DNA of 36,290 nucleotides. Origin: a virus. Its lineage: Duplodnaviria > Caudoviricetes. The notes under the pieces were generated by a model, which saw only the letters and a list, made by a program, of their open reading frames with translations, was not told the origin of the DNA and made no database searches. Position numbers and translations under genes: made by a program. The stretch spans positions 1 through 36,290 of IMG/VR virus record IMGVR_UViG_3300031836_000038; one strand, 5' to 3'. This document shows, piece after piece, positions 3,318-36,290 of the stretch; within the stretch, counting starts at the first letter, position 1, and each line of letters starts with the position of its first letter.

Positions 3318-3632
3318 ATGAGCCTGCGCCAAGCCGCCGAAGAAGTTATCCAAGGGCGTCAGGCCCGCAAAGAAATGAAGTACATCAGCAGTAACGCCAA
3401 GATCGCCAAAAAGTGCGAGGTGGGCCGCTCCGTCGTTGAGCGTGTGCTGCTGGGTCTACCAACACGCCTTGCCACCGACGAAGACAGGGGCAGGATTCTG
3501 GCGCTGAAAGCCGAGCACCACAGATTGCTGACGATCCAACGCTACAACGCCCTGCCCATTTCTGCCTACCGGCACGGATTCACGCCAAGCCAGATCAGAG
3601 CCGAACTTCAGCGCATGGGGGTGGAGCTATGA
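3318..3632 (+). CDS. hypothetical protein, possible HTH
   Basis: Likely start is MSLRQAAEEV at 3318 within track ORF 2883..3632. NAKIAKKCEVGRSVVERVL is HTH-like. ATGA overlap with the next gene. Confidence 0.65.
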   Translation: MSLRQAAEEVIQGRQARKEMKYISSNAKIAKKCEVGRSVVERVLLGLPTRLATDEDRGRILALKAEHHRLLTIQRYNALPISAYRHGFTPSQIRAELQRMGVEL

Positions 3633-4293
3633 GGGTCTTAATCGGCTGCGAATCCAGCGGCATCATCCGTGACGCCTTCCGGGCGCTGGGCCATGACGCC
3701 TATAGCTGCGACCTGCTGCCGTGCGAAGGCGATACAGCATTTCATTTTCAGTGTGACGTTCGGACGCTGCTCAAGCCCGGTATGTGGGATCTGTTCATTG
3801 CTCACCCGGACTGCACCTATCTCACAAACTCCGCTGCCTGGGCGTTTGGCGATGGCCCTTACCACCAGAAAGTAAAGCCCGGGACGCTGGTAGGCGCAGA
3901 GCGCAGAGGGAGGTCGCCTTGGCTTTCGTTGAGGAAATGCTAAACGCGCCGGTTCCGTTCATTGCACTGGAAAACCCAGTGGGCGTTATCAGCACCCGAA
4001 TACGCCCGGCCAGCCAGTACATCCAGCCCCACGAATACGGCGAAGACGCCAGCAAGAAAACCGGCCTGTGGCTCAAGAACCTTCCACTGCTTCAGCCGAC
4101 TGGGAGTGTTGCGCCGCGCTTCGTTGATGGGCGCCCTCGCTGGGCCAATCAGACTGACAGCGGGCAAAACCGGCTATCACCCGGCGCGAATCGCTGGATT
4201 GAGCGCTCCCGCACATACCGGGGCTGGGCTGACGCCATGGCTGCCCAGTGGGGTGACCACGTAACAGCACAACAACTGAGGGTTGCAGCATGA
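3629..4293 (+). pseudogene. C5 cytosine DNA methyltransferase-like gene, frameshifted at about 3894-3907
   Basis: The first frame has RVLIGCESSG..RDAF...GHDA.SCDL and IAHPDCTYL (motif I- and IV-like). The second frame has IALENPVG (motif VI), IQP.EYG....KKT.LWL and RSRTY.G.A.AMA.QW. The frame changes at a GCGCAGA x2 repeat. Confidence 0.8.
3894..3907 (+). repeat. tandem heptamer GCGCAGA x2 at the methyltransferase frameshift
   Basis: GCGCAGA at 3894-3900 and 3901-3907. Confidence 0.9.
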
Positions 4294-10161: not shown

Positions 10162-10186
10162 TGTCCATAGTCGATAATTACCCCCG

Positions 10187-10220
10187 AAACCCGCACCCAT
10201 AACAGGATTGCGGGTTTTTT
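10187..10220 (+). terminator. intrinsic terminator, tR'-like
   Basis: AAACCCGCA...TGCGGGTTT stem running into a T tract. Confidence 0.85.
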
Positions 10221-10261
10221 ATGCCCCGAACATCTCCACGCGGTCTGCTACGCCGCACCTC

Positions 10262-21717: not shown

Positions 21718-22573
21718 ATGAGTCAATTATGGAGCGTTGATACACTGGGCGGGTTTATGTATTCGGACCAGCTCTCATCCACCCTGCGGACTTCCCTGCA
21801 GCCCCTGACCCGCTTCCGCAACTTCTGCGACGTAGAAGACGCGAAAGAAAAGGGCACCGGCGACCTGTTCAACTGGAACGTCTATTCGGACGTGGCCACC
21901 CAAGGCGGAACACTCGCCGAAGGGTCCACGATGCCGGAAACCACGTTCAGCATCAGCCAGGAAACCTTGACCGTTACCGAAAAGGGTAACTCTGTCCCCT
22001 ACACGCGCAAGCTGGATATTCTGTCCAAGCATTCGTGCGAGCAGGTGATTCACAAGGTTCTGAAGAACGATGCCAGCAAAGCATTGGATACCGCCGCTTA
22101 CACTGAGTTTGCGAAGGCCCCTGTGCAAATGGCCCCGACCGGAGGCACCAGCGCTACCGCTGTGACCTTCACCGAAGGCGTGACTACCATCACCAACAAC
22201 GTGGGACTATCCAAAGAGCACGTCAAGGCCATTGCCGACGAGATGGCCGAGCGCAACGTGACGCCATACGACGGCGAGAACTACTGCGCACTGGGTCGCC
22301 CGACCACTTTCCGCCCCTTCAAAGACGATCTGGAAGAGCTTCACAAGTACGTGGATGCAGGCTATGCCCGCATTGCGGCTGGTGAAATTGGCCGCTACGA
22401 AGGCATTCGCTTCTTCCAGCAAACCAACATTGGCACCAAAGGCTGGACCAATAGCAAGTCTGATGAAGCGTTCTTCTTTGGCGCCGATACCGCCTGTGAG
22501 GCGATTGTCGAACCCGAGCAGATTCGTGCGAAGTTGCCGGGTGACTACGGTCGTTCGCGCGGCATGGCGTGGT
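21718..22573 (+). CDS. major capsid protein (N4-gp56-like), exon 1
   Basis: Q.W....GG..YSD.LS..LR...QP..RFR.FCD, E.GNSVPYT.KL..LS, GEIGRYEG.RF, DYGRS.G.AW. The exon ends at T22573. Confidence 0.92.
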
Positions 22574-22852
22574 TAAACTAAGGTATAGCCACGAACGTCT
22601 GGCAACAGGCGTTTAGAAACTCCGTGAACTGCTGGGAACCCCTTAGAGCCTGACCACCACAACGTAGCTGGAAACGGCAAGCGTGAAGGTTTAAAAACGG
22701 ACAGGATTGGGAAATCAGCAGCCAAGCCCCGCATAAAAGGGGAAGGTTCAACGACCATCATGTAGGGCTAAGTGGCCCGAAGTGCGGAGCCCCGGAAACG
22801 GGTGAAGATATGGTCTGGTCTGCATCGAAAGATGTAGCGGCGCGGCTTTATA

Positions 22853-22861
22853 TGGTATTAT
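22853..22861 (+). promoter_or_regulatory. possible extended -10 promoter for the HNH gene
   Basis: TG-g-TATTAT about 30 nt before the HNH ATG. No clear -35. Confidence 0.4.
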
Positions 22862-22889
22862 TGCGTGTACTCAAAACAGAGGGCGTGCA

Positions 22890-23384
22890 ATGAATATTAA
22901 TATAGAGCTCATCGAAAGGTTCCATGAAAAATGGACTCTGAGCCCCAGCGGTTGCTGGGAGTGGCAGGCAGCTAAGGCTGGTGCTGGGTACGGCGCAATG
23001 AAGCAGCCGGGAACCAGGATTATGCTTTACGCCCATAGGCTTTCTTATTTGCTTCATCATGGTGATCTGGCAGATAAAGAAGTTGTTTGTCACAGTTGCG
23101 ACAACCCATCTTGTGTTAAGCCGAGCCATCTATTTAAGGGTACAGCTAAAGACAACCTTCAGGACATGAAGGCAAAGTCCAGGCATTTATTCGGCGAGCG
23201 AAACGGTTCTTCAAAGCTGACTGACGACAAAGTGCGCCAGATTCACCGCTTGGAACTTGAAGGCTTATCGCAAGGGAAAATCGCAAAATCGTTCGGAGTT
23301 GCCCAAGGCACGGTTAACAAAATCCTGCACGGGCAAAGATGGAATCACATCTACCTAGAGATGAAAGGCGCGGGTCAGGATTAA
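22890..23384 (+). CDS. intron-encoded HNH homing endonuclease
   Basis: CWEW.....GYG........AHR.SY..H.G......VCHSCDNPSCV.P.HL..GT..DN..DM..K.R, then SKLT...V..I and a C-terminal HTH (SQGKIAKSFGVAQGTV..I..G..W). GAGGG RBS. Confidence 0.95.
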   Translation: MNINIELIERFHEKWTLSPSGCWEWQAAKAGAGYGAMKQPGTRIMLYAHRLSYLLHHGDLADKEVVCHSCDNPSCVKPSHLFKGTAKDNLQDMKAKSRHLFGERNGSSKLTDDKVRQIHRLELEGLSQGKIAKSFGVAQGTVNKILHGQRWNHIYLEMKGAGQD

Positions 23385-23406
23385 CGCCCCTGGCTGAACA
23401 TAAACG

Positions 23407-23483
23407 TATATATCGGCGGCTATGGCATTTCTCACACCGCCGCTGCAAACGCTCGCATCTTCAAGTGGTCGTCTGCCGCTTAA
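23407..23483 (+). CDS. major capsid protein, exon 2
   Basis: Ligation T+TA TAT ATC GGC GGC TAT GGC gives ...GMAW-L-YIGGYGISHTAAANARIFKWSSAA*. 856+77=933 nt, 310 aa, in frame. Confidence 0.92.
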
Positions 23484-23491
23484 ACCCCTGC

Positions 23492-23519
23492 AGGGCGGCA
23501 CACGTCGCCCTTTGCTTTT
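23492..23519 (+). terminator. hairpin/terminator after the capsid gene
   Basis: AGGGCGGC-ACAC-GTCGCCCT then TTGCTTTT. Confidence 0.6.
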
Positions 23520-23536
23520 GATATGAGGAAACACCC

Positions 23537-32377: not shown

Positions 32378-35300
32378 ATGAGTAAGTATTCCGAGTTTTT
32401 TTCCGCACTGGATCAGCAGGCCGAGCAGCCGGACACCTATCTGGAGTTTGATGCCCCCAGCCCAAGAGTGGCCACATCAAAGCCACAACCTGAGCCGGAG
32501 AGCGCCGAGGCGCCGGGCATGATCTCAAACGCAATGCGTTATGCGGGCGAGCGCGGCATGGACTTGATCGGTAACGCGATTCAGTTTGCTGGACGGCTGG
32601 CCGATGGGGGTGAACAGAAGATCACCGGCGCATTGGGCGGAATAAACCCGGGTGTACGGGCCGGCAACGCTCAGGATATGCGCGATAAGGGCTACGATCC
32701 TGACTTTGAGGTTGGCGGGTATGGCGTTGATTTCACGGCCAGATTAAACCCGGAAGAAACCGACCTTGGCCTACAGGGCCTGGGTCAGTCAGCCGAAGAC
32801 GTGACGCTTGGGTACCAGCCCAACTACACCATAGACCGGGCAATCGACGAGCCCTCCATAGAAACCATCATTGGCGCGGCGGCGGAGAATGGCCCCGCTG
32901 CACTGGCTGATATGGCTGCCATGATTCTTAGTCTGCCCGCCTATCTTGGCTCCCGCACGCAGGAAATTGCAGAAGCCCGCGTAGAAAACAACTTTGGCAA
33001 CATCAGCAAAGCCTCCCCCGAGCTGCAGTCTGCGCTGGTTAAAAACTTCACCGAAGACCAACCCATCCCCGAGCATCTGCAGAAAGAGGCGGATCAACTT
33101 GCGCTGCCAGGGTGGGACGATTACAAAGTAGCTGGCCCAACAGCGGCGGCCTCGGTTTTGATTGACCGTATCGCGCTTGGCAAGTTGCTACCTGGCGGCA
33201 AGGGTGCCATTAAGAGTTGGCGGCAACTGCCCGGCGCTGCTGGTCGAGCCTTTGTAACGGAGTCGGGCACTGAGGCTGTCCAAGAAGGCGGCATTGAATA
33301 CGCCGGTGAATCCATCGGCACACAGAAGGGTTATAGCTCAAACGAAGCTGTACGCAGGGCTATTGGCGGCGCAATTGTGGGCGGGCCTACAGGTGCGGCA
33401 GTACGAGGGGCGACGGCTTCCGTTGAAGTGCGCCGGGATCAGGCCGCACAGAAAATAGCCGAAGATGCCTTACGCGCCAGAGAAGCCTCAGCAGCCGCAG
33501 GCGGTGACGCACTGGATGCCGCCAACGCGGCCAGTGAATCCATTGCCGGCAATCTGAAAAACCCGATTGTTCGTGATGAACCCATGAGCGACATTCGTGG
33601 TCTGATGGCTCAGGCCCAGCAGCAGGGCGATATGCTGACCAGTGGCGCCAACGATGCCGATATTGCCAACGCTGCCCCGGATCTTTGGGCGCCCAGCACC
33701 GCACCACGGCCTTACGACATTGGCCGGATGGGGCGTAACCTCGCCAATCCGCCTGTTGATGCCCCCGCCGAAGCGCTTTCAGAACGAATCACGGACGTTG
33801 CGCAGGGACCAGAAATCCCCGCCGCACCCGGGCCAGCACAATCGGAAGCAGGCCCGCAGGTCACCGAATCCGGCACTGGCGTGTTCCGTGTGCCCGTCGA
33901 TCAGATCAACGTTGATGCCGAGCAATACCAGTTCCGCAGTCGCGTGAATGAACAGGGCGTGGATAAGCGCCTGGATGGCGTGAAGAAGTGGGATGATGGA
34001 CGCGCCAACAACATACTGGTGCATCGTCGCGTAGACGGCTCACTGTACGTTGCTGATGGCCACCACCGCCTTGACCTGGCTAAACGCTTAGGACAGACCG
34101 CTGTAAACGCCAAGATCATTGATGAGGCCGACGGCGTTACTGTTGAGGACGCTCGCTTTGATGCCGCTATGAATAACATAGCCAACGACAAAGCCGATGC
34201 GCTGGACGTGGCCAAGGTATTCAGAAATTCCAAGTTACCCGTCAGCGAAGTGCGGAAGGCGCAAGACCTGCCCAACAATCAAGCAGCCCGCGACGGCGAA
34301 GCTCTGGCAAAGTTGTCGGATAATGCCTTTGGCATGGTGGCAGCCGGCCAACTTAGTGAAAAGGACGGCGCCGCAATAGGCTCTGCTTTTTCCGAGACAG
34401 GTCAGCAAGAAGCCGCGGCGTCTGCCTTTCAGAAGATTGAGCCGCAGACCGACTATCAGCGCCAGCTTTTAATCAGCGAAATTCGCGCTGCAGAGTTTGC
34501 GCAATCCCAGGGCGATCAGAGCGGCTTGTTTGGGGATGACGCGCAAGAAGTGTCGTTGATGCAGGATCGACTGAAAGTGCTGGAGAAGCTGCGCCAGCAA
34601 CTGAACATGGACAAGCGCCTATTCAAAAGCCTGAACGACAACGCCGATAGAGCGATTGTTGCTGGAAATAAAATAGCGGTTGAGGCTAATGCTACAATCA
34701 CAGAGCGCAGCGCAAAAAGCCTTGATCTAATCGGGCGCGTAACCACGACCCCAGCGCTGAATGAGATGGTGAATCGTGCCGCTCGCCGCGTATTTGACGG
34801 CGGCCCTATCGCCACCGTTGCTAAAGAATTAAAACAGGAGTTGGCCAACTATGAATCGGGAACAACTACAGGCGTCGGCAGACCGAAGACAGCAGCACCA
34901 AGCGGCAGACCGACTGCTCAGCCAGGGAAAAACGCTGGATCAGATAAACCAGTATCTGGCCAAGACACCGCTGAAGCAGGTCAAAGCGGACAACCTGAAA
35001 TCGGACGGCCAGAAGCAGCCCCCGACCTCGACCTAACCGCCCAAACCGAAGCCGAACTGGCCAAGCAAGCTGCAGACCGCGATGCTGCCGAGAAGGCCGC
35101 CACCAAGGCCAAGCGTGACGCCGAGCAGAAAGACAAGGCCGATGCCCAAGCGGATGATTTCGTACTGTCTGGCAGCGACCGGCAGGCCGATGTAGCCGAG
35201 GCGCGTGGGCAGGGGAGTTTGCTGGATCAGCCCGAATCAACCACCCGTCAAGCACCAAAAGCCGCTGATGCCAAGCCTTCCGAGCAGGCAGATAGTGAGG

Positions 35301-36290
35301 CGCCGGCAGCCAGTCAAGCAAGTGGCGTGCCTAATCGGGACTCCATTATATCTGATTTTGGCCAGAAGCTAGAAGGCGCCCGAAAAGATTACGCAAGCCG
35401 CATGGCCGACGCGAAAGAGAAAGACGTTGCCGGCGTACCGCTGTCCGAATCATGGCCCCAGCCTGACTACCAGAAGATGATTGATTCTGGCGTTGACCCT
35501 GTGGCCGTTGGTTTTGCCCGCGCAGCCCGAGACGAAGTACCGTCAAAGCCGCGCAAAGGCTGGAAGCTGAAAGGTTGGGCCCGCGACGTTGAGGCGCTGC
35601 GCGACGTTGCCGAAAAGATTGTTAGCGGTGACATCACCATGGATCGAGTGCGTGAATCTGCCGACAAGCAAGAAAATCGCGCTGTGGCAGCTTACACCGT
35701 TGGCCTGGCAGAGCTTTATGCCGAAGTTGGCCACAGCAAGAGCCTGAAAGGGCTTCGGTTCCACAAGGCGCACTTCTCGCTCTGGAACGGCGAAAAAGAT
35801 GTTACCAAGTGGCTCATTGAGCGCACTGCAAGCACCGCCTCATTCGGCAACATGCCGCGACAGATCGTTGCAGCTGACACCAAAGAGCAGGCTATTAAGG
35901 AGTTCCGAAAAGTCCATGAATCCATGGGCGAAAAAGGGAAAGCGGAAAAGCAGACTCGTTTCGATATCTATTCCGACCGCCGCGATAAGAGCGACATTTT
36001 CATTGGTAAGAAAATTGGCAAGGATGTTGTTCGGATCAAGGAAGGGTTCAGTTCCGTCAAGGAGGCCCGCGAATACCTGTCCACCAAACAGGACGCGCTT
36101 GAAAGTATTCTGAGCAAAATGAAGAACATTCCAGATCATCGGAAGGCGATCAACTCACCCAGGGTAGGCGCGGATCACCGCAACGGCGGCGACGTGACAC
36201 CGGAGGCATTTGCTGAAGCTCTGGGATTTAGAGGCGTTCAGTTTGGAAATTATGTGGAGCAGGGCCGGCGCCAAGCCGACTTGAATCAAG
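32378..36290 (+). CDS. giant polyvalent virion protein with ParB-like and LPD-type domains (truncated by window edge)
   Basis: ATG 32378 (MSKYSEFFSALDQ). Segments I translated at the start, middle and end share one frame, and the track lists no closed ORF in that frame. Contains YVADGHHRL (ParB/Srx-like), DFGQKLEGARKD and GFRGVQFGNYV..RRQ.DLN (LPD1-type). Confidence 0.85.
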   Translation, partial: MSKYSEFFSALDQQAEQPDTYLEFDAPSPRVATSKPQPEPESAEAPGMISNAMRYAGERGMDLIGNAIQFAGRLADGGEQKITGALGGINPGVRAGNAQDMRDKGYDPDFEVGGYGVDFTARLNPEETDLGLQGLGQSAEDVTLGYQPNYTIDRAIDEPSIETIIGAAAENGPAALADMAAMILSLPAYLGSRTQEIAEARVENNFGNISKASPELQSALVKNFTEDQPIPEHLQKEADQLALPGWDDYKVAGPTAAASVLIDRIALGKLLPGGKGAIKSWRQLPGAAGRAFVTESGTEAVQEGGIEYAGESIGTQKGYSSNEAVRRAIGGAIVGGPTGAAVRGATASVEVRRDQAAQKIAEDALRAREASAAAGGDALDAANAASESIAGNLKNPIVRDEPMSDIRGLMAQAQQQGDMLTSGANDADIANAAPDLWAPSTAPRPYDIGRMGRNLANPPVDAPAEALSERITDVAQGPEIPAAPGPAQSEAGPQVTESGTGVFRVPVDQINVDAEQYQFRSRVNEQGVDKRLDGVKKWDDGRANNILVHRRVDGSLYVADGHHRLDLAKRLGQTAVNAKIIDEADGVTVEDARFDAAMNNIANDKADALDVAKVFRNSKLPVSEVRKAQDLPNNQAARDGEALAKLSDNAFGMVAAGQLSEKDGAAIGSAFSETGQQEAAASAFQKIEPQTDYQRQLLISEIRAAEFAQSQGDQSGLFGDDAQEVSLMQDRLKVLEKLRQQLNMDKRLFKSLNDNADRAIVAGNKIAVEANATITERSAKSLDLIGRVTTTPALNEMVNRAARRVFDGGPIATVAKELKQELANYESGTTTGVGRPKTAAPSGRPTAQPGKNAGSDKPVSGQDTAEAGQSGQPEIGRPEAAPDLDLTAQTEAELAKQAADRDAAEKAATKAKRDAEQKDKADAQADDFVLSGSDRQADVAEARGQGSLLDQPESTTRQAPKAADAKPSEQADSEAPAASQASGVPNRDSIISDFGQKLEGARKDYASRMADAKEKDVAGVPLSESWPQPDYQKMIDSGVDPVAVGFARAARDEVPSKPRKGWKLKGWARDVEALRDVAEKIVSGDITMDRVRESADKQENRAVAAYTVGLAELYAEVGHSKSLKGLRFHKAHFSLWNGEKDVTKWLIERTASTASFGNMPRQIVAADTKEQAIKEFRKVHESMGEKGKAEKQTRFDIYSDRRDKSDIFIGKKIGKDVVRIKEGFSSVKEAREYLSTKQDALESILSKMKNIPDHRKAINSPRVGADHRNGGDVTPEAFAEALGFRGVQFGNYVEQGRRQADLNQ

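What the first reader, a model, noticed from the sequence alone, without database searches (positions are those of the whole stretch)
21718..23483. Group I intron splits the major capsid gene 25 codons from its end
Seen: P1 with the U.G splice pair, P/Q/R/S core, P3, P7 (GACCA/TGGTC, a compensatory change from the usual GACTA/TAGTC), P8, P9, P10 and terminal G. Removing 22574-23406 restores ...DYGRSRGMAWLYIGGYGISH...KWSSAA. Unspliced mRNA stops at TAA 22579-22581. Known phage group I introns lie mostly in DNA-metabolism genes of lytic phages. Here the most abundant virion protein of a temperate phage would depend on guanosine-triggered self-splicing, which could tie head assembly to cell state. 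Annotation would show a truncated capsid plus a free HNH.
Basis: partly seen in the sequence, partly recalled or inferred. Interest (0 to 1): 0.9.

Follow-up and report, generated by a model that had tools for sequence, protein, structure and literature searches.

The report
Mobile intron inside phage capsid gene
A brine phage's capsid gene is cut 25 codons from its end by a real group I intron carrying a DNA-cutting gene; such introns are already known, but here that enzyme's relatives also sit free just behind intact capsid genes and likely target the same spot.

Summary
Observation confirmed. 22574-23406 is an 833-nt group I intron (Rfam RF00028, 75.6 bits). Removing it gives a 310-aa capsid protein, the length of intronless homologues 88-90% identical. 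Its core helices covary across 11 alleles. Splicing is inferred, not shown.

The novelty premise fails. A capsid intron in a temperate phage was shown experimentally in mycobacteriophage LittleE, others are reported in Tuc2009 and crAss-like phages, and this scan has 61 earlier notes of the kind on other DNA. Nothing supports a GTP-linked control of head assembly: the intron occupies roughly 1% of family alleles and 92%-identical relatives lack it. A temperate lifestyle is likely but not shown.

The HNH belongs to a clade found only inside or directly behind this capsid gene. In one phage group, sequence divergence linked to the free-standing form starts at the intron site. An intronless allele from the same sample has altered codons there. 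Best reading: a selfish homing intron, with a predicted T4-like promoter and RBS-hiding hairpin. New member of a known kind.

The parts
21718..22573 (+). Major capsid gene, exon 1 (codons 1-285 plus first base of codon 286); HK97-like fold, N4-gp56-like
   Evidence: PHROG 1357 major head E 3.4e-14; homologues; Foldseek top hits are phage capsids, E 7.7e-11, on a model of homologue P0002
22574..23406 (+). Group I intron, 833 nt, U.G 5' splice pair, terminal G
22568..22593 (+). P1 with internal guide sequence (22588-22593), P10 strand (22582-22587) and in-frame stop TAA 22579-22581
22620..22837 (+). Ribozyme core P3-P9, with extended P5 and a hairpin insertion (22765-22778) between P7 and P3'
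22853..22861 (+). Predicted extended -10 promoter (TG-N-TATTAT) for the HNH gene
   Evidence: same 9-mer in three other HNH introns (L037, L056, L276), related form in three free-standing relatives; found before 1 of 29 window genes; not found by the consensus scan, which needs a -35
22860..22892 (+). Predicted hairpin hiding the ribosome-binding site and start codon of the HNH gene
   Evidence: z -3.4 against shuffles; mean unpaired probability 0.14 in the long transcript, 0.49 if transcription starts at 22867-22870
22890..23384 (+). HNH endonuclease gene (164 aa; HNH_3 plus C-terminal HTH) in the P9 region; stop codon lies inside the 3' hairpin
   Evidence: PF13392 36.2 bits, cut-off 24.8; H68 and N89 invariant in 12 relatives and aligned with I-PpoI H98/N119
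23373..23406 (+). 3' hairpin (23373-23395), GAACA motif and terminal G
   Evidence: (GAACA and terminal G in 11 of 11 alleles)
23407..23483 (+). Major capsid gene, exon 2 (rest of codon 286 to stop); no ATG, GTG or TTG in its frame back to the stop at 23382
23492..23521 (+). Terminator-like hairpin after the capsid gene
   Evidence: 4 found, 2.7 expected by chance: weak

Best explanation
The capsid gene is interrupted by a group I intron that likely self-splices out of the late mRNA to restore a 310-residue capsid protein, and that likely spreads as a selfish element because its HNH nuclease is predicted to cut intronless capsid genes at or next to the insertion site. Steps: (1) ribosomes on unspliced RNA stop at TAA 22579-81 before the core (sequence shows the stop; benefit inferred). 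(2) Guanosine-initiated two-step splicing joins 22573 to 23407 (inferred from structure, covariation and homologues). (3) On the abundant late transcript a hairpin hides the HNH start; a short transcript from an internal extended -10 promoter would lack the hairpin's 5' arm and be translated (predicted; same logic as T4 I-TevI). (4) In co-infection the nuclease would nick or cut an intronless allele, and repair would copy the intron in (inferred). The nuclease belongs to a lineage specialised on the 3' end of this capsid gene, present either inside the intron or free-standing behind the gene.
For: Rfam hit and full anatomy. 95.8% of 449 cells paired and 25 of 41 pairs change on both sides in 11 alleles; 0 of 500 shuffles reach this, and slid controls give 29-43% paired. 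Exact-length intronless homologues. 15 intron types at this site in distantly related capsid genes (down to about 46-55% protein identity), with, without or with a decayed HNH. Mobility: introns of L056/L067/L090 are 98.6-98.7% identical while the 105 nt upstream are 90-94% identical and the downstream genes differ. Target: L175 (free HNH of the same clade) differs from L056 at 14 of 330 nt before the site and 23 of 75 after it (p 5e-10). Empty allele L084 has 11 mismatches in the 45 nt around the site and 0 in the next 60. Tree: a branch of 15 of 40 rows (support 94/97) holds only capsid-linked HNHs, 7 free and 8 intron-borne (L148 placed in a capsid intron); 0 of 71 other-context rows fell in it in the 88-row quick tree. 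An intronless allele in runs X7/X8 (about 6x against 330x) reads W-M-Y-I at the site.
Against: No RNA, splicing or cleavage data. The HNH carries K77 where I-PpoI and most relatives have N, though four intron alleles at 59-64% identity share it. Three HNH introns (L056, L072, L431) keep the canonical W-Y-Y-L exon and L037 has W-Y-A-I, so altered codons are not required. The promoter/hairpin cassette is weak or absent in L072 and L234. Two capsid-linked HNH groups (L034/L409; L284) lie outside the clade. The careful tree's bootstrap had not settled and used 22 of 71 outgroup rows. The HNH search was seeded with capsid-linked sequences and covered 7 of 64 parts of the collection. P8 is only 44-70% paired in the alignment.
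Confidence: 0.85

Rival explanations
1. Splicing is used as a control point that ties capsid output to GTP level or cell state.
For: Full-length capsid would depend on a guanosine-using reaction (inferred).
Against: Relatives at 88-92% identity lack the intron. 0 of 119 and 0 of 68 capsid loci in two samples not selected for the intron carry it at this site. At least nine positions in this gene family carry introns. Pope et al. presumed LittleE capsid splicing to be extremely efficient.
Confidence: 0.05
2. The intron splices, but its HNH is a dead or dying passenger and the element is now inherited vertically.
For: K77 substitution; a decayed HNH at the same site in L065; 7 of 15 types have no ORF; identical copies in L001/L002 say nothing about mobility.
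Against: Intact 164-aa frame, invariant H68, C70, C75, H80, N89, D92; K77 shared by four diverged alleles; promoter and hairpin conserved. dN/dS was not computed.
Confidence: 0.12
3. The nuclease is kept mainly as a weapon: it damages the capsid gene of co-infecting or superinfecting relatives that cannot be converted, as gp210 of PhiPA3 does to PhiKZ. This can be true alongside the best explanation.
For: Precedent (PMC11620839, abstract). Predicted host-type promoter independent of the late programme. 3 of the 5 closest intact homologues (88-92%) have a non-Tyr residue at 286, against 3 of the other 111. The co-occurring intronless allele is altered at the site.
Against: These alleles are related, so the counts are not independent; the same pattern follows from plain homing plus escape. 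No expression data.
Confidence: 0.2
4. The capsid gene is simply broken by an insertion (defective phage), or the 287-aa product is the working capsid.
For: Stop codon two codons into the insert.
Against: Five invariant residues lie in exon 2; exon 2 is intact; the phage is abundant and uniform in several runs; the core covaries.
Confidence: 0.02

Closest known systems
Major capsid gene intron of mycobacteriophage LittleE (Cluster J; Pope et al. 2013, PMC3706429; passages read)
   Same: Intron of about 820 nt with an endonuclease ORF in the major capsid gene of a temperate tailed phage; exon ends in U, intron in G; intronless relatives at about 90% identity.
   Different: LittleE's splicing was shown by RT-PCR and N-terminal sequencing, its ORF is on the opposite strand, the site is near the N-terminus of the mature protein and its class was only 'most likely' group I. 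Here the core is a clear RF00028 match, the HNH is sense in P9 and the site is in the C-terminal strand; the host is probably a proteobacterium (inferred).
Capsid introns of lactococcal phage Tuc2009 (cited in PMC3706429 and PMC2504315) and crAss-like phages (Yutin et al. 2021, PMC7886860; passages)
   Same: Group I introns in major capsid genes, several per gene in crAss Zeta phages.
   Different: Other capsid families and hosts; crAss cases are predicted from protein domains.
T4 td/nrdB/nrdD introns with I-TevI/II/III (Edgell et al. 2010, PMC2988022; passages)
   Same: Endonuclease RBS hidden by a hairpin on the host-gene transcript and freed on a transcript from an internal promoter; ORF end overlaps intron structure.
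   Different: In T4 the host genes are early/middle and the internal promoters middle or late; here the host gene is late and the predicted promoter is a sigma-70-type extended -10. Not tested here.
Collaborative homing and endonuclease capture (S-PM2 psbA with F-CphI; T3/T7-like pol introns; as reviewed in PMC3984707, PMC2988022, PMC10448857; passages)
   Same: ORF-less intron, free-standing endonuclease and composite intron converge on one conserved site.
   Different: The defining layout (ORF-less intron plus adjacent free nuclease in one genome) was not seen here; the states occur in different genomes. Direction (capture or escape) is unresolved.
HNH-3 endonucleases in the ICP1 tape-measure introns (PMC10448857) and PhiPA3 gp210 (PMC11620839, abstract)
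   Same: Intron-borne HNH nucleases in essential phage genes, with turnover of nuclease content at fixed splice sites.
   Different: Different host genes; sequence relationship to this HNH was not tested.

Membership tests
Group I intron (RF00028) | Covariance-model score above the curated threshold | tested here: met
   75.6 bits against 50
Group I intron (RF00028) | P1 with U.G pair at the 5' splice site | tested here: met
   U22573.G22588 with 5 further pairs; guide sequence follows exon codon changes in L072 and L087
Group I intron (RF00028) | P3-P4-P6-P7-P8 core with G-C guanosine-binding pair in P7 | tested here: met
   P3, P4, P6 100% paired, P7 98%, G-C pair in 11 of 11; P8 44-70% in the alignment
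Group I intron (RF00028) | Terminal G, with P9.0/P10 at the 3' splice site | tested here: met
   G23406; GAACA motif and terminal G in 11 of 11 alleles; P10 of 5-6 pairs
Group I intron (RF00028) | Self-splicing with exogenous guanosine | not testable with these tools
   needs RNA or bench work
Subgroup IA | P7.1/P7.2 insertion between P7 and P3' (feature list partly recalled; PMC3984707 names P7.1/P7.2 as class features) | tested here: inconclusive
   a covarying hairpin lies there, but no subgroup models were available
HNH homing endonuclease | HNH catalytic motif | tested here: met
   PF13392 36.2 bits, cut-off 24.8; H68/N89 align with I-PpoI H98/N119 at E 0.009-0.02 (their catalytic roles are recalled)
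HNH homing endonuclease | DNA-binding domain | tested here: inconclusive
   C-terminal HTH hits all below cut-off
HNH homing endonuclease | Cuts intronless allele near the insertion site and drives biased inheritance | not testable with these tools
   indirect support only
N4-gp56 family major capsid (TIGR04387) | Score above the curated cut-off | tested here: not met
   33-39 bits against 60; N4-gp56-like only. Intact homologue passes PF25209 (28.3 against 27)
HK97-fold major capsid protein | Fold matches solved phage capsids | tested here: met
   model of P0002 (pLDDT 76.9); best Foldseek hits are phage capsids, TM 0.56-0.63; the fold name is recalled
Temperate phage | Integrase and repressor | tested here: inconclusive
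   none among 59 window ORFs scanned; contig is partial. The Hahella prophage with a 70%-identical capsid and 60%-identical TerL has an integrase, two Peptidase_S24 (repressor-type) genes, an HTH gene and a flanking tRNA-Ser
Temperate phage | Lambdoid accessory genes (Rha/antirepressor, O-like initiator, NinB, NinG) | tested here: met
Collaborative homing unit | ORF-less intron and adjacent free-standing nuclease in the same genome | tested here: not met
   0 of 7 ORF-less alleles had a related HNH downstream within the 490-2505 nt held; the window's own intron is composite
Collaborative homing unit | Free-standing nuclease targets the intron insertion site | tested here: inconclusive
   divergence boundary at the site in L175 and L120; cleavage untested

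The most novel reading that the evidence does not exclude
The last 25 codons of this capsid gene are a battleground held by one nuclease lineage in two forms, free behind the gene or captured inside the intron. The family then shows every stage in the birth and decay of a mobile intron at one site. The host-type promoter lets the nuclease act outside the late programme against intronless competitors, which survive by rewriting the W-Y codons of their own capsid.
Probability: 0.35. Interest if true: 0.62.

Novelty: new member of a known kind. Interest (0 to 1): 0.36.

Why it matters
The intron itself is ordinary, but it makes gene callers truncate a marker gene: 4 of the top 120 protein hits (the window's own among them) end at this site. 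The family context is the useful part. Free, captured, decayed and absent forms of one HNH clade at one site, with near-isogenic alleles (L056/L175/L120/L084; window/L003), give a small, direct test of how nucleases enter ORF-less introns. In the passages read that model rests on two phage systems. They also allow a test of whether homing drives amino-acid change in a core capsid strand.

Tried and rejected
RNA evidence: no RNA holder listed; this says nothing about expression.

Alternative 3' splice sites: nine other G residues tested give early stops, another frame or deletions of conserved residues. Split-gene reading with exon 2 translated alone: no ATG, GTG or TTG in its frame back to the stop at 23382. 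The 60-aa ORF 23339-23521 has no family hit and is taken as a shadow.

Consensus promoter scan found none; the extended -10 rests on conservation. Self-immunity by altered exon-2 codons as a rule: rejected, since L056, L072 and L431 keep W-Y-Y-L. Collaborative layout in one genome: not found (0 of 7).

A guess that a minor genotype shares the whole intron block was dropped: one search shows the minor allele is intronless, and X7/X8 look like one data set (same longest record), so they count once.

Rows dropped: L074, L086 and L287 matched the peptide pattern but are not capsid introns. L067 and L090 were left out of the careful tree as near-duplicates. The automatic guide-sequence pick for L037 and L040 and the P7 3' pick for L072 and L078 were wrong; the core pairs were redone from the alignment. 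AU tests neither reject nor show the groupings (p 0.35). Sequence search of PDB gave no significant capsid relative. Closest isolated phages are Vibrio podoviruses at 56% with unannotated capsid genes.

Literature searches listed no paper whose title or abstract start concerns introns or free HNH genes in this capsid family; subscription journals are not covered, and supplements were not opened. No complex prediction was run.

Full report
1. Observation. The window is part of a podovirus-like genome: Rha/antirepressor, O-like initiator, NinB, NinG, holin, TerS, TerL, SU10-type portal, capsid, adaptor and tail fibre in order. Holders are brine metagenomes. The capsid ORF 21718-22581 stops after 287 aa. 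Rfam RF00028 covers 22564-22837 at 75.6 bits. Joining 22573 to 23407 gives 310 aa. Intronless homologues at 88-90% identity are 310 aa and carry the exon-2 sequence, and L003-L005 run through the site. Contigs from other runs reproduce the junctions without differences.

2. Structure beyond chance. Eleven distinct alleles of the intron at this site were aligned and 41 named pairs counted: 95.8% of 449 cells pair, 25 pairs change on both sides, 0 of 500 shuffles reach any measure, and slid controls give 29-43% paired. The pairs were read from the window's sequence, which favours it over slid versions, but the double-sided changes in P3, P4, P6a, P7 and P9 do not depend on that. P8 aligned poorly (44-70%). 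The subgroup was not determined; a covarying hairpin between P7 and P3' is IA-like (feature partly recalled).

3. Why splicing is needed. Exon 2 holds five invariant residues of a 44-sequence alignment. In a model of homologue P0002 (pLDDT 76.9) the site lies inside strand 283-293, followed by strand 303-306; the model matches solved phage capsids. A 287-aa product is therefore unlikely to assemble (inference). No RNA data exist, so splicing is inferred.

4. The site across the family. Pattern searches and extraction gave 15 distinct intron types after the same Trp codon. Six have an intact HNH (window, L037, L056 type, L072, L431, L451), one a remnant (L065), seven no ORF (L035, L036, L040, L061, L078, L087, L409), and one is cut off (L041). 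Rfam hits cover this site in 13 of the 15, the window included; L041 is truncated and L451 is split by an insert, and neither scored. The intron is rare: 8 stretches against about 1100 estimated for the general pattern, 0 of 119 and 0 of 68 in two samples not selected for it, and 3 of 119 other top protein hits. Rfam-positive introns also sit at about eight other positions of this gene (near codons 30, 50, 90, 185, 256, 271, 276, 289), including one on a 716-kb contig of an Aromatoleum isolate (L242). This is the pattern of parasites on a conserved gene.

5. The nuclease. The 164-aa ORF passes HNH_3. H68 and N89 are invariant in 12 relatives and align with I-PpoI H98 and N119 (weak E-values, roles recalled). 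Relatives also occur free-standing directly after intact capsid genes: L045, L046, L162, L175, L234, L240, L297 and, outside the clade, L284. In an 88-row quick tree a branch with SH-aLRT 99 held 14 rows, all capsid-linked, and none of 71 rows from other contexts. In a 40-row careful tree (22 of the 71 kept) the branch held 15 rows at 94/97, with the 8 intron-borne rows together at 87/94 and the free ones unresolved (bootstrap not settled). The direction of movement is open. The search was seeded with capsid-linked sequences and scanned 7 of 64 parts, but its top new hit, L297, was again capsid-adjacent.

6. Evidence for target and mobility. One phage group (89-96% DNA identity in the capsid gene) shows four alleles: intron with HNH (L056, L067, L090), free clade HNH (L175), another free nuclease gene (L120) and empty (L084). 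The three introns are 98.6-98.7% identical while upstream flanks are 90-94% and downstream genes differ. Against L056, L175 has 14 of 330 mismatches before the site and 23 of 75 after, L120 14 of 330 and 18 of 75. L084 has 11 mismatches in the 45 nt around the site and none in the next 60. This is what conversion tracts starting at the site would leave (inference). Near the window, 3 of the 5 closest intact proteins have M or L in place of Tyr286 against 3 of the other 111 (not independent). An intronless W-M-Y-I allele co-occurs at about 6x against 330x in X7/X8, probably one data set. Against a strict rule, three HNH introns keep W-Y-Y-L.

7. Control of the nuclease. TG-N-TATTAT at 22853-61 recurs in the L037, L056 and L276 introns, with related forms before L162, L175 and L240. 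It precedes 1 of 29 window genes, and the pattern occurs 3 times in both strands of the window. A hairpin covers the RBS and AUG (z -3.4); starting transcription at 22867-70 raises mean accessibility from 0.14 to 0.49. T4 I-TevI uses this logic, and removing its hairpin lowers td splicing (PMC2988022, passages). Here the HNH stop also lies in the intron's 3' hairpin. The cassette is weak or missing in L072 and L234. All of this is predicted.

8. Lifestyle. No integrase or repressor is in the window, which is partial. The nearest isolate relative, a Hahella prophage (capsid 70%, TerL 60%), has an integrase, repressor-type genes and a flanking tRNA-Ser; isolated Vibrio podoviruses share 56%. Temperate is likely, not shown.

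9. What is known. Pope et al. 2013 (PMC3706429, passages) showed splicing of an 819-nt endonuclease-bearing intron in the capsid gene of temperate phage LittleE and cite one in Tuc2009. Yutin et al. 2021 (PMC7886860, passages) report them in crAss-like capsid genes. Tourasse and Kolsto 2008 (PMC2504315, passages; author names recalled) list prophage tape-measure, terminase and tail-tube introns. PMC10448857 (passages) shows spliced ICP1 late genes with HNH-3 turnover, and PMC12880540 (passages) thousands of introns in Jug phages. Collaborative homing is described in PMC3984707 and PMC2988022 (passages); interference competition in PMC11620839 (abstract and outline). This scan holds 61 earlier notes with these key words and 8 on collaborative homing at capsid genes, on other DNA and unchecked; none on this protein or genome. 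Searches listed nothing on this capsid family.

10. Verdict. A real group I intron with an HNH gene in a capsid gene: new member of a known kind. The regulatory idea has no support. The added value is the family-level picture of one nuclease lineage, free and intron-borne, at one site. Interest 0.36.

Noticed in passing
window 3629-4293: A DNA methyltransferase gene (phrog_757) is split into two overlapping frames (profile 15-97 and 99-226) with the break near 3900-3915; frameshift, small deletion or assembly error not resolved.
   Followed up: no
window 32378-36289: A very large ORF (over 1304 aa, open at the contig end) with a weak ParB-like hit and similarity to giant phage proteins; possibly an ejected protein.
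   Followed up: no
L431 1505-2304: The intron at the same capsid site appears to end in A, not G, if W-Y-Y-L is to be restored; rare variant, decay or sequencing error.
   Followed up: partly
L451 about 1600-2330: Intron at the same site with a second, antisense ORF of over 200 aa in the P5 region that looks LAGLIDADG-like (motif recalled, not scanned), besides the HNH in P9.
   Followed up: partly
L409 530-1815: Two introns about 28 nt apart at the capsid 3' end: one with an HNH from outside the clade at codon 276, one ORF-less at codon 285; a possible trans-homing pair. L061 likewise has introns at 285 and about 289.
   Followed up: partly
L034 1475-2500: Capsid intron at codon 90 whose 5' loop holds about 700 nt that appears to carry an antisense ORF (not translated); the same site is used in L035, L065 and the Aromatoleum prophage L242.
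   Followed up: partly
L120, just after the capsid stop: A different nuclease-like gene with a similar C-terminal HTH occupies the slot behind the capsid gene, with the same TG-N-TACAAT motif and a hairpin.
   Followed up: partly
window 10180-10226: Strong predicted hairpin (z -4.3) before the DUF5675 gene that follows the Q-like gene; may be the late-promoter terminator.
   Followed up: no
window 22953-22993: A 41-nt stretch of the HNH gene matches unrelated, abundant contigs with 6 differences in several runs; treated as a chance match.
   Followed up: no
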